From a virus (taxonomy: Duplodnaviria; Heunggongvirae; Uroviricota; Caudoviricetes): a DNA stretch of 32,795 bases. A model generated the notes under the pieces. That model ran no database searches. It saw nothing but the letters and a program-made list of their open reading frames with translations, and was not told the DNA's origin. Both the position numbers and the translations under genes were made by a program. Shown here in pieces: positions 30,237-30,867 of the stretch. Positions within the stretch are counted from its first letter, which is position 1, and each line of letters opens with the position of its first letter. The stretch lies in the IMG/VR virus record IMGVR_UViG_3300035703_000003; one strand, given 5' to 3'.

Positions 30237-30312
30237 TGGCGCCCCCGGCAGGAGTCGAACCCACAACCCAGGGAGTAGAAATCCCTTGCTCTTCCAGTTG
30301 AGCTACGAAGGC
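30237..30312 (-). tRNA. tRNA-Arg(TCT)
   Basis: Cloverleaf with AGGGA-TT TCT AC-TCCCT; encoded CCA. Confidence 0.92.
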
Positions 30313-30328
30313 TAAAATATTTAGGGCA

Positions 30329-30398
30329 AACCTGCTACGGGAATCGAACCCGCCTCTCCACCTGCACAGTGGTATCCTCTCCGATAGACGAAGCAGTC
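30329..30398 (-). pseudogene. degenerate tRNA-like element
   Basis: Intact T arm and Asp/Glu-type D arm, but 5-nt anticodon loop (CCACT-GTGCA-GGTGG), acceptor mismatch and no CCA. Confidence 0.55.
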
Positions 30399-30678
30399 TA
30401 CTACACAGAAGCCCGTAATTCTCCTGTAAATAGTCCCCGTTAGGTGTTCACGGCCACCTATTCAAATTCCCGGGACCCCCATTAGGGTTTTTACCCCTGC
30501 GTGATATGATCACCTTAATGATACGCCGAGGTCCCACAGCGTATGCAACGTTCTCTCTATATAAAGTGTCGACCCCTTACATAAAGATTTACAACATGTC
30601 ACGATCCCACCTTGGTTGCCGTCCAGTCGTCACTACATGCACTACACAAGTTGCCGGTCTCTCCTTATGCAGCTTTAT
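30399..30678 (-). ncRNA. candidate structured ncRNA (~280 nt) between tRNA-like elements
   Basis: No convincing ORF; several hairpins rich in G-U pairs on the minus strand (30641-30673, 30555-30586, 30521-30544, 30484-30498, 30441-30460). Confidence 0.55.
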
Positions 30679-30785
30679 TGGCGTCCTGTGTCCGATTCGA
30701 ACGGGATGAAGCACACGAGCGTTTCATTTCTCTACTTCGACATCTGAGCGATCAACCTCATAGTCAGCACCATGCCAGACAGGAC
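30679..30785 (-). tRNA. non-canonical 107-nt tRNA-like RNA (possible 9/3 fold, Ser-like)
   Basis: GTCCTGTCT/ACACAGGAC acceptor with one mismatch, CCG-TTCGAAT-CGG T arm, G73 plus CCA, small D arm, very long variable arm, 8-nt loop containing T-TGA. Confidence 0.5.
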
Positions 30786-30790
30786 ATATT

Positions 30791-30867
30791 TGGTAGGCCT
30801 GTGGGGATCGAACCCAACACTTGACGGCATCATGTCATAATGCCCGACTACACCATAGTTGCGGCCT
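30791..30867 (-). tRNA. non-canonical tRNA-like RNA (Val GAC?)
   Basis: AGGCC/GGCCT acceptor, A73 plus CCA, T loop TTCGATC, 5-bp D stem with GGT loop, 6-7-bp anticodon stem with AT-GAC-AT. Confidence 0.45.

What the first reader, a model, noticed from the sequence alone, without database searches (positions are those of the whole stretch)
30399..30678. Unassigned ~280-nt structured RNA embedded in the tRNA array, with a possible alternative fold
Seen: the segment starts right after the CCA of the 107-nt tRNA-like element and ends 1 nt before a degenerate tRNA, so tRNA processing could release it. Hairpins on the minus strand: CTTTATGTAAGG/CTTTATATAGAG (12 bp, 4 G-U), ATACGCTG/CGGCGTAT, TAGGTG/CACCTA, AGGG/CCCT. 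The 5' arm GCTGCATAAG can pair with the nearby CTTGTGTAGT or with the 3'-terminal CTTCTGTGTAGT (ACTACACA occurs at 30400 and 30641), giving mutually exclusive local versus closing helices. GAC(C)GGCAAC occurs twice. The G-U pairs work only on the minus strand, which suggests selection at RNA level. I do not recognise a known RNA family.
Basis: partly seen in the sequence, partly recalled or inferred. Interest (0 to 1): 0.75.

Follow-up and report, generated by a model that had tools for sequence, protein, structure and literature searches.

The report
New two-part RNA in phage tRNA-array
The flagged stretch is real structured RNA. It consists of two conserved, independently folding RNA modules (a pseudoknotted ~135-nt RNA, and a second RNA that wraps around a tRNA look-alike) found among the tRNA genes of giant freshwater phages. 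They match no described RNA family, and their job is unknown.

Summary
The minus strand folds better than shuffles (z = -2.98); the plus strand does not (z = +0.42). The 280 nt are not one unit, though. Comparison with about 45 related loci from viral and metagenome contigs shows three parts:

- **5' extension** (30597-30678), shared only with two near-identical relatives.
- **Motif A** (about 30464-30596): a long hairpin with a near-invariant GGUCGACA loop, a three-way junction and an 8-9 bp pseudoknot.
It has a 6-bp kissing loop and a covarying 10-bp helix that encloses the "degenerate tRNA".

Covariation is strong: 15 of 26 pairs in motif A and 21 of 36 in motif B change on both sides, with 96-97% of cells paired.

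Each motif occurs once per near-complete genome, and each can occur alone. The gap between them holds from 3 nt to 2.5 kb of genes. Rfam 15 gives no match. Group I intron, tmRNA, YrlA and T4 rnaC/rnaD membership all fail.

The proposed alternative closing helix competes with a conserved hairpin and has no comparative support.

Best reading: stable non-coding RNAs cut out of the tRNA precursor, probably protein-binding tRNA mimics. Function is inferred, not shown.

The parts
30597..30678 (-). Lineage-specific 5' extension. It starts right after the CCA (30679-30681) of the upstream 107-nt tRNA-like element.
   Evidence: Present only in the window, L016 and L042, nearly identical. Other lineages have no extension, or an unrelated one (TAGACTGG...CCAGTCTA type).
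30464..30596 (-). Motif A: conserved pseudoknotted RNA module of about 135 nt.
   Evidence: Model R1 matches 30458-30599 at 128 bits, E = 2.8e-42. In 26 distinct homologues 95.9% of cells are paired, and 15 of 26 pairs change on both sides.
30555..30586 (-). H1: 12-bp hairpin (30586-30575 with 30566-30555) with the near-invariant loop GGUCGACA (30574-30567).
   Evidence: 10 of 12 pairs show compensatory changes. The loop is GGUCGACA in 24 of 26 sequences and GGUUCGAAAC in 2; both keep N-UCGA-N' self-complementary.
30497..30548 (-). Three-way junction. P2 (30548-30545 with 30500-30497) encloses H2 (30544-30537 with 30528-30521) and the variable hairpin H3 (30514-30501).
   Evidence: P2 is 99% paired but nearly invariant. 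H2 has 4 of 7 pairs with compensatory changes. H3 varies in length and sequence but always forms a hairpin.
30472..30535 (-). PK1 pseudoknot: the H2 loop GGGACCUC (30535-30528) pairs with GGGGUCCC (30479-30472). H4 (30497-30485, GGG/CCC with an A-rich loop) lies between the two strands.
   Evidence: Duplex of 8-9 bp in most of 25 homologues. Mean energy -11.6 kcal/mol against -5.8 +/- 2.5 for shuffled partners. Compensatory types include GGAACC/GGUUCU, GGGCUA/UAGCCC, GGAC/GUCC and GGGCCG/UGGCCC. Weak in L018, L027 and L071.
30313..30461 (-). Motif B: conserved module that encloses a tRNA-like domain. It ends at position +1 of tRNA-Arg(UCU), which is at 30312.
   Evidence: Model R2 matches 30293-30466 at 127 bits, E = 1.2e-35. 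In 20 homologues 97.2% of cells are paired, and 21 of 36 pairs change on both sides.
30442..30459 (-). Its loop (30454-30447) forms the PK2 kissing interaction with the H6 loop UUACGGGC (30418-30411).
   Evidence: H5 has 3 of 6 pairs with compensatory changes. PK2 is 100% paired, with 3 of 6 pairs compensatory: CGGCAA/UUGCCG, CUGCAA/UUGCAG, CCGCGA/UCGUGG.
30398..30433 (-). Pb/H6 arm: CUAUU (30433-30429) pairs with AGUAG (30402-30398), extended by H6.
   Evidence: Pb covaries CUACC/GGUAG with CUAUC/GAUAG. In most of the 17 homologues parsed, including the window (13 bp, -10.1 kcal/mol), the arm folds as one long hairpin.
30331..30397 (-). No CCA.
   Evidence: The acceptor, D and T stems covary. 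ARAGORN does not call it in the window. It calls the homologue tRNA-Leu(GAG) in L001/L016 and tRNA-Asp(GUC) in L024. Rfam tRNA scores are 23 to 39 bits.
30322..30442 (-). Pa: long-range helix whose 5' strand (30442-30435) and 3' strand (30327-30322) enclose Pb/H6 and the tRNA-like domain. It is degenerate in the window (UA..GGG / CCCUA, 5 bp with a 2-nt bulge).
   Evidence: In relatives it is a 9-10 bp helix with 8 of 10 pairs compensatory, for example CUGAGAG/CUCUCAG, GGCUAGGAG/CUCUUAGCC, GACUGGAGA/UCUCCAGUC and GACUCAAAG/CUUUGAGUC.

Best explanation
Window 30313-30678 (minus strand) encodes two adjacent, independently folding, conserved non-coding RNA modules inside a jumbo-phage tRNA operon, preceded by a lineage-specific 5' extension.

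**Motif A** (~135 nt) is a compact fold: a long hairpin with a T-loop-like, self-complementary loop; a three-way junction; and an H-type pseudoknot.

**Motif B** (~150 nt) is a three-way junction closed by a 10-bp helix. One arm is a hairpin that kisses a neighbouring hairpin. The other arm is a tRNA-shaped domain with an intact elbow (D and T arms), a free-varying 'anticodon' arm and no CCA.

**Shown:** the structures, their conservation, their separability, and one copy of each per genome.

**Inferred (about 60%):** both are cut out of the polycistronic tRNA precursor by host tRNA-end processing. RNase Z or an exonuclease would act after the upstream CCA, and RNase P at position +1 of the next tRNA. 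The products would accumulate as stable RNAs.

**Inferred (about 30%):** they act in trans as protein-binding tRNA mimics, scaffolds or decoys in tRNA metabolism or the phage-host conflict over tRNAs. This fits the tRNA-repair-type genes around them. The linker between A and B tolerates insertions and has become a landing site for small gene cassettes.
For: **Structure and covariation**
- The fold is strand-specific.
- Motif A: 26 sequences, 95.9% of cells paired, 15 of 26 pairs with double changes. Slid controls give 31-59% paired.
- Motif B: 20 sequences, 97.2% paired, 21 of 36 pairs with double changes.
- The kissing loop and Pa are supported. PK1 is supported.

**Boundaries at tRNA ends**
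- The window RNA begins right after the GCCA of the upstream tRNA-like element and ends at +1 of tRNA-Arg(UCU).
- In L079, L071 and L073, motif A alone fills the gap between the CCA end of one tRNA and the start of the next.

**Independence of the modules**
- Motif A occurs without B in L068-L074 and L079.
- Motif B occurs without A in L064 and L067.
- In the 330-kb contig, B lies 1.8 kb upstream of A.
- There is one copy of each in two near-complete genomes.

**Function independent of cargo**
- Versions with no cargo (window, L019, L032, L041) keep the structure through compensatory changes.

**Not a decoding tRNA**
- The anticodon-like loop varies in size and sequence, and the nominal anticodon differs between homologues.

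**Context**
- Two metallophosphoesterases lie beside the array.
- The inserted cargo includes a HAD_SAK_2 RNA-repair-type HAD domain.

**Weak hint of expression**
- Short contigs of 151-195 nt from three metatranscriptome runs lie wholly within 30469-30667.
Against: - No direct evidence for processing sites, stability or any binding partner.
- The metatranscriptome evidence is low-depth contigs from libraries that may contain DNA.
- Pa is degenerate in the window itself (5 bp with a bulge), so this motif B copy may be impaired.
- Cargo genes always lie between A and B when both are in canonical order. In the 330-kb contig, A is still directly upstream of genes and B directly downstream of genes. 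That pattern also fits a cis role in expressing the embedded genes.
- No phage-encoded partner protein was identified. The small basic protein often found in the linker also occurs without either motif.
Confidence: 0.55

Rival explanations
1. Cis-acting bracket for genes embedded in the tRNA operon. Motif A would be a 5' leader that protects or regulates the downstream mRNA. Motif B would be a 3' tRNA-like processing and stabilising handle, where RNase P defines the mRNA 3' end as with MALAT1-mascRNA. Empty versions would be cassettes that have lost their cargo.
For: - Cargo of 3 nt to 2.5 kb always lies exactly between A and B.
- In L016, A directly precedes four ORFs and B directly follows three ORFs.
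- Cargo is varied: a small basic protein, a HAD_SAK_2 protein, and a 1.65-kb insert in L024.
Against: - Only one A and one B per genome, although these arrays hold many embedded ORFs.
- Four lineages without cargo keep both structures by compensatory change.
- Motif A stands alone between two tRNAs with no ORF nearby.
- Near-invariant loop and junction nucleotides suggest specific recognition rather than a generic stabiliser.
Confidence: 0.2
2. Motif A is a ligand-sensing riboswitch aptamer or a self-cleaving ribozyme of a new class. Its pseudoknot and invariant junction nucleotides would form a binding or active site.
For: - Size, an H-type pseudoknot across a three-way junction, and blocks of near-invariant unpaired nucleotides (GGUCGACA, GAGAAC, GGGGUAARAGUCC) are typical of aptamers and ribozymes.
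- In several lineages it lies directly upstream of an ORF whose ribosome-binding site sits in a small hairpin.
Against: - No conserved expression platform or terminator.
- The downstream element varies: an ORF, motif B, or a tRNA.
- No match to any Rfam riboswitch or ribozyme, even at E <= 10.
- No cleavage-site signature was identified.
Confidence: 0.1
3. Motif B, perhaps together with motif A, is a Y-RNA-like (YrlA-type) RNA. A closing helix plus a tRNA-like module would bind a host Ro60/Rsr protein, linked to RNA repair or decay.
For: - The architecture is the same as published for YrlA: a stem formed by distant 5' and 3' strands enclosing a tRNA-like module with D and T arms (PMC4201824).
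- The H1 loop GGUCGA resembles the Ro60-contacted GGUCCGA and GNCGAA motifs.
- RNA-repair-type neighbours are present.
Against: - The Rfam YrlA model scores 18-26 bits against a gathering score of 69.
- No TROVE/Ro60 gene in two near-complete phage genomes, whereas the control genomes gave matches.
- YrlA genes lie within 4 kb of rsr, which is not the case here.
- The motif resemblance is six letters and sits in a hairpin loop rather than a 5' stem strand.
Confidence: 0.07
4. Self-splicing group I-type intron, or another mobile RNA with ORFs inserted in a peripheral loop.
For: - Variable ORF insertions at one fixed point inside a conserved structured RNA.
- A GAGAGACUAC segment resembles the group I R element (seen by eye).
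Against: - No Intron_gpI hit at E <= 10.
- The helices supported by covariation do not give a P3-P7 pseudoknot or a P4-P6 arrangement.
- No conserved 5' exon: upstream is a tRNA, a promoter-like sequence or another RNA.
- The U.G pair in H1 is not conserved.
- The inserted ORFs are not homing endonucleases.
- The two halves occur separately.
Confidence: 0.03
5. Non-functional spacer or decayed tRNA pseudogenes with chance hairpins.
For: The window copy has a degenerate Pa helix and an uncallable tRNA-like domain.
Against: Extensive compensatory covariation across about 26 distinct sequences from many samples. Single-copy retention in complete genomes.
Confidence: 0.02

Closest known systems
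YrlA / bacterial Y RNAs (Rfam RF02553; Chen et al. 2014, PMC4201824)
   Same: A helix formed by distant strands closes a module that mimics tRNA (D arm, T arm, acceptor-like stem) with a non-decoding 'anticodon' region. Some members are phage-encoded. Associated with RNA-repair-type genes.
   Different: No sequence or model homology (18-26 bits against a gathering score of 69). No Ro60/TROVE gene in the phage genomes. Motif B has an extra Pb/H6 arm, an H5 hairpin and a kissing loop. It sits inside a tRNA array, not next to rsr.
T4 rnaC / rnaD (species 1 and 2 stable RNAs at the end of the T4 tRNA cluster; annotated in NC_000866)
   Same: Two small stable RNAs of unknown function, encoded within a T4-type phage tRNA gene cluster and processed with the tRNAs. 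rnaC folds with a T-arm-like hairpin.
   Different: Models R1 and R2 find nothing in the T4 cluster beyond generic T-arm or tRNA matches. Sizes and folds differ, and no pseudoknot or kissing-loop architecture is known for the T4 RNAs. That they are processed with the tRNAs is from my own knowledge.
GOLLD and ROOL large ornate RNAs (Rfam; PMC12286853)
   Same: Phage-borne, highly structured RNAs that sit in or near tRNA clusters and have unknown function. According to earlier notes of this scan, the same genome carries a GOLLD RNA. A self-complementary loop (GUCGAC) could allow self-association, as in those RNAs.
   Different: Much smaller (135 and 150 nt against 580-800 nt). No Rfam match. Oligomerisation is untested.
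tRNA-like 3'-end processing elements (MALAT1-mascRNA; plant mitochondrial t-elements) and E. coli tyrT-operon RtT RNA / tpr (own knowledge)
   Same: tRNA-shaped elements used as RNase P/Z processing signals for neighbouring RNAs. A small basic protein gene and a structured RNA are embedded in a tRNA operon.
   Different: Here the tRNA-like domain is enclosed by a covarying helix rather than free-standing. No homology. Processing was not tested.

Membership tests
Any Rfam 15 family | Covariance-model score at or above the family's gathering threshold | tested here: not met
   Only tRNA models match in the window and in relatives without cargo. Nothing else overlaps motif A or B apart from sub-threshold matches to YrlA, tmRNA and pemK fragments (13.6-18 bits), even at E <= 10.
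Group I intron | P3-P7 pseudoknot with a P4-P6 domain, a conserved U.G at the 5' splice site in P1, a terminal G, and flanking exons that are joined | tested here: not met
   No Intron_gpI hit. The covariation-supported helices do not fit that architecture. The U.G in H1 is U-A in 6 of 15 sequences. The upstream flank is not conserved.
Group I intron | Self-splicing activity | not testable with these tools
   Needs in vitro transcription with GTP, or RNA-seq junction reads.
YrlA / Y RNA | Match to the YrlA covariance model | tested here: not met
   18 bits at 30288-30353, and 25.8 bits elsewhere in L020, against a gathering score of 69.
YrlA / Y RNA | Encoded within about 4 kb of a Ro60/Rsr (TROVE) gene on the same strand | tested here: not met
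   No TROVE match in G002 (330 kb, 93% complete) or G003 (201 kb, complete). The control genomes gave matches.
YrlA / Y RNA | tRNA-like module closed by a stem formed from distant 5' and 3' strands | tested here: met
   Pa (8 of 10 pairs compensatory) encloses a domain with covarying acceptor, D and T stems.
tmRNA (standard or two-piece) | ARAGORN or Rfam tmRNA detection, with a tag reading frame and an alanine-type acceptor ending in CCA | tested here: not met
   ARAGORN finds no tmRNA in the window. The Rfam tmRNA match is a 15-nt T-loop fragment at 13.6 bits. The tRNA-like domain has no CCA.
Functional (decoding) tRNA, for the embedded domain | 7-nt anticodon loop with a conserved anticodon, a free 7-bp acceptor stem and a CCA end | tested here: not met
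   Loop length and sequence vary widely, and the nominal anticodon differs (Leu GAG, Asp GUC, none). No CCA. The 5' strand continues directly into helix Pb and the 3' side into Pa.
T4 rnaC / rnaD | Sequence or structure homology to the T4 stable RNAs | tested here: not met
   R1 gives nothing above 7 bits in the T4 tRNA cluster. R2 gives only T-arm or tRNA matches. blastn against 50,697 phage records finds nothing.
GOLLD / ROOL | Match to the Rfam models | tested here: not met
   No hit.

The most novel reading that the evidence does not exclude
Motif A is a new class of functional RNA: a ribozyme, a ligand or protein sensor, or a self-associating RNA that uses its self-complementary N-UCGA-N' loop. 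Motif B is a purpose-built tRNA-elbow decoy that phages use against host enzymes that recognise or cleave tRNAs. Together they would be a previously unrecognised RNA-based counter-defence or translation-control device carried in jumbo-phage tRNA arrays.
Probability: 0.15. Interest if true: 0.85.

Novelty: new variant of a known kind. Interest (0 to 1): 0.62.

Why it matters
Phage tRNA arrays are increasingly seen as tools in the contest with host tRNA-cleaving defences, but the non-tRNA RNAs inside them are almost unstudied. The T4 rnaC and rnaD RNAs still have no known function, to my knowledge.

This report gives two well-defined RNA families with pseudoknot and kissing-loop architecture, clear boundaries, and models (R1, R2) that others can search with. 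They are found in many freshwater and saline-lake phage contigs.

The tRNA look-alike locked inside a helix, with a free-varying 'anticodon' arm, gives a concrete, testable handle on tRNA mimicry by phages. The linker between the modules is a natural insertion point for small genes, including an RNA-repair-type HAD protein, which is of interest for how phage accessory genes move.

Tried and rejected
- **Rfam.** Searched at gathering and at E <= 10 on the window, on the cargo-free relative L019, and on L020/L076. No family was found for motif A, motif B, the L020-type insert or the 5' extensions.
- **Cultured phages.** megablast and blastn of the region and of L019 against 50,697 phage records gave no match. 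Sinorhizobium phage phiM12 has the closest cultured relative of the neighbouring phosphoesterase, but it lacks both motifs.
- **Own genome.** Not held. The nearest record, G001, is a 9-kb fragment without the locus.
- **Bacterial and archaeal genomes.** The genome contigs pattern scan gave 0 hits.
- **Group I intron idea.** Dropped after the covariation analysis.
- **Ro60/TROVE search.** Negative.
- **Small basic CxCCxC protein as an obligate partner.** Rejected. More than 130 homologue clusters exist, and several (L057, L059, L060) have neither motif nearby.
- **Helix joining the 5' end (AAUUC) to GGAAUU or GAAAUU tails.** Considered by eye. It is AU-rich with no covariation, so it is not claimed.
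- **Base pairing between motif A and motif B.** None found.
- **Metatranscriptome contigs.** No cover was seen over motif B or the flanking tRNA-like elements. Under the tool's own rules this is not evidence of absence.
- **Catalogue of 10,006 viral candidate RNAs (PMC10690425).** Its supplement is not held, so I could not check whether these motifs are listed there.
- **Literature searches.** No description of this RNA was found.

Full report
**1. Observation**

The region lies on the minus strand of a phage tRNA array. Reading 5' to 3' on the minus strand, the order is: Lys, Asn, Arg, Arg, an odd tRNA, a 107-nt tRNA-like element, the flagged RNA, a 'degenerate tRNA', Arg(UCU), Leu(GAG), and then a phosphoesterase gene.

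The minus-strand RNA folds to -88.9 kcal/mol, z = -2.98 against dinucleotide shuffles. The plus strand gives z = +0.42.

Rfam 15 finds only tRNAs in the array, both at gathering thresholds and at E <= 10.

**2. Relatives**

The 50,697 deposited phage genomes hold nothing similar. Uncultured relatives were reached in three ways:
- through the neighbouring phosphoesterase;
- through exact-pattern scans of viral contigs;
- through a pattern scan of metagenome contigs.

This gave about 45 loci and about 26 distinct sequences. They include contigs of 201 kb (complete, with terminal repeats), 330 kb, 342 kb and 374 kb. Bacterial and archaeal genomes gave no hit.

Hints about the phage and its host:
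- Earlier notes of this scan describe the same genome as a jumbo phage with about 31 tRNAs and a GOLLD RNA just outside this window. I did not re-test this.
- A related contig carries an alphaproteobacterial two-piece tmRNA.
- The closest cultured relative of the neighbouring phosphoesterase gene is in Sinorhizobium phage phiM12.
- DNA runs holding the sequence are mostly lake or other freshwater metagenomes; the run that may be the source is labelled subsurface.

**3. Anatomy**

The alignments show that the 280 nt are not one unit.

*5' extension (30678-30597).* It is shared only with two near-identical relatives (L016, L042). Other lineages have nothing there, or an unrelated extension.

*Motif A (about 30596-30464).* Its parts are:
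- hairpin H1, 12 bp, with loop GGUCGACA;
- a purine-rich joiner, GAGAAC;
- helix P2, which closes a three-way junction holding H2 and the variable H3;
- the small hairpin H4, with an A-rich loop;
- pseudoknot PK1, between the H2 loop and the segment after H4 (GGGACCUC with GGGGUCCC in the window).

On 26 sequences, 95.9% of cells are paired and 15 of 26 pairs change on both sides. Slid controls give 31-59% paired (the first alignment is).

PK1 forms 8-9 bp in most of 25 sequences, with several compensatory types. Its mean energy is -11.6 kcal/mol against -5.8 for shuffled partners. Three sequences (L018, L027, L071) combine mismatched halves, which looks like recombination within the motif.

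The H1 loop is GGUCGACA in 24 sequences and GGUUCGAAAC, a T-loop-like sequence, in two. Both keep N-UCGA-N' self-complementary. This could mean one extra closing pair on a UCGA tetraloop, or a loop that pairs between two molecules. The data cannot tell these apart.

The types seen are CGGCAA/UUGCCG, CUGCAA/UUGCAG and CCGCGA/UCGUGG; in the window it is CCGU(G)AA/UUACGG.
- A 10-bp long-range helix, Pa, pairs the segment before GACUAY with the conserved 'trailer' after the tRNA-like element. Pa therefore encloses two branches: the Pb/H6 arm and the tRNA-like domain.

Support for motif B: 98.5% paired and 21 of 42 pairs changing on both sides in the first alignment, kissing loop included. In the 20-sequence alignment it is 97.2% paired with 21 of 36 pairs. 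Pa alone has 8 of 10 compensatory pairs. In the window Pa is degenerate, at 5 bp with a bulge.

The tRNA-like domain keeps covarying acceptor-like, D and T stems, but it is not a decoding tRNA:
- its 'anticodon' arm varies freely in loop size and sequence;
- ARAGORN calls it Leu(GAG), Asp(GUC) or nothing, depending on the phage;
- it has no CCA.

**4. Separability and copy number**

- Covariance models R1 and R2 each find exactly one full-length copy in the window and in two near-complete genomes.
- Motif A occurs alone, exactly filling the gap between the CCA end of one tRNA and the start of the next, in several lineages.
- Motif B occurs alone in others.
- In the 330-kb contig, B lies 1.8 kb upstream of A.

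When both are in canonical order, the linker between them varies widely:

| Linker content | Where |
|---|---|
| 3-7 nt | window, L019, L032, L041 |
| structured insert of 110-156 nt | L017, L020 |
| gene for a 64-70 aa basic CxCCxC protein | L018, L021, L022 |
| HAD_SAK_2 gene (RNA-repair-type HAD) | L015, L027 |
| 1.65 kb | L024 |
| seven ORFs, 2.5 kb | L056 |

The small protein is widespread and also occurs without either motif. It is therefore cargo, not an obligate partner.

**5. The alternative-fold claim**

The 5' arm GCUGCAUAAG lies in the lineage-specific extension. Its proposed 3' partner CUUCUGUGUAGU is the 3' strand of the conserved Pb/H6 hairpin. That hairpin is 13 bp in the window, and the same arm folds as one long hairpin in most of the 17 homologues parsed.

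Duplex energies for local and distal pairing are similar (-13.1 and -13.5 kcal/mol), so competition is physically possible. However, only three near-identical sequences carry the arm, and L042 loses a local pair without compensation. There is no comparative support for the claim.

**6. Expression**

Contigs of 195, 151 and 164 nt from three metatranscriptome runs (riverine and freshwater) lie wholly within 30469-30667. That span is the extension plus motif A. They are about 97-99% identical to the window.

This is only a weak hint of a discrete abundant RNA: depth is low, these are contigs rather than reads, and DNA carry-over cannot be excluded.

**7. Comparison with known systems**

| System | Result |
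|---|---|
| Group I intron | No model hit, wrong helix topology, no conserved exon, halves separable |
| tmRNA | Not detected |
| YrlA / Y RNA | Shares the 'tRNA-like module closed by a distant-strand helix' design (PMC4201824). Fails the model score (18-26 bits against 69), and no Ro60 gene is present |
| T4 rnaC / rnaD | The closest analogue in genomic setting, and rnaC has a T-arm. Not homologous |
| GOLLD / ROOL | Share the setting but not size or sequence |

**8. Mechanism**

*Shown:* two conserved folds, their independence, single copy per genome, and boundaries that coincide with tRNA ends.

*Inferred:* release by RNase P and RNase Z-type processing of the tRNA precursor, and action in trans as protein-binding RNAs. 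Motif B would present a tRNA elbow without a usable anticodon or acceptor end, which is what a mimic or decoy for a tRNA-recognising factor would look like. Motif A has the complexity of an aptamer or ribozyme core.

The main rival is a cis role in expressing the genes lodged between them.

**9. Verdict**

This is a real, well-supported and apparently undescribed pair of phage RNA families. Function remains open.

Noticed in passing
window 30679-30787 (minus strand); homologues in L001/L015, L002/L021, L017: The upstream 107-nt tRNA-like element has a very long, almost invariant variable arm. Its acceptor stem is completely re-coded between relatives (GUCCUGU/ACAGGAC against GCUGGGU/GCCCGGC). 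It is therefore a functional RNA and not a decayed tRNA. ARAGORN does not call it.
   Followed up: partly
window 30792-30866 (minus strand): Another tRNA-shaped element ending in CCA, with two acceptor-stem mismatches and a 6-bp anticodon-like stem (loop AUGACAU). Neither ARAGORN nor Rfam calls it.
   Followed up: no
L020:1175-1330, L024, L029, L066 (between motif A and motif B): A conserved non-coding insert of about 150 nt replaces the ORF cargo in some lineages. By eye, a stem changes GAUCCAUC/GAUGG to GCGUC/GACGC between L020 and L024. No Rfam match.
   Followed up: partly
L018, L022, L024, L027, L076: about 95 nt directly upstream of motif A: A second, unrelated type of 5' extension: a long helix TAGACTGG...CCAGTCTA enclosing two hairpins. 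In some loci it is preceded by a promoter-like GCTATAGTGT. No Rfam match.
   Followed up: no
L016:12188-12902; L056, L057, L058: A gene pair (small basic 64-70 aa CxCCxC protein followed by a HAD_SAK_2 protein) recurs in several jumbo-phage contigs; the small protein alone has more than 130 homologue clusters. It has a conserved short leader in which the ribosome-binding site sits in a hairpin (CTAGGCTAATAACCTAGGAG). The small protein matches no Pfam or PHROG family.
   Followed up: partly
L076:11042-11405: A related 100-kb viral contig encodes an alphaproteobacterial-type two-piece tmRNA (alpha_tmRNA, 124.6 bits). This points to an alphaproteobacterial host for this phage group.
   Followed up: no
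L018/L037/L039, L027, L071 (motif A): The two strands of pseudoknot PK1 are of different 'types' in these sequences and pair poorly. This suggests recombination between variants inside the motif.
   Followed up: partly
L079/L071/L075/L080: about 75 nt directly upstream of motif A: Another aberrant tRNA-like element (GCTTCTGCCGG...GGGAGCACCA, with a TTCAACTCATTCC loop region) is conserved immediately upstream of motif A in one lineage.
   Followed up: no
L063:1409-1547 (T4 rnaC): T4 species-1 RNA folds (z = -4.57) into a closed structure that includes a canonical T-arm (CCGGGUUCGAAUCCCGG). It is therefore also a tRNA-like-containing RNA.
   Followed up: partly
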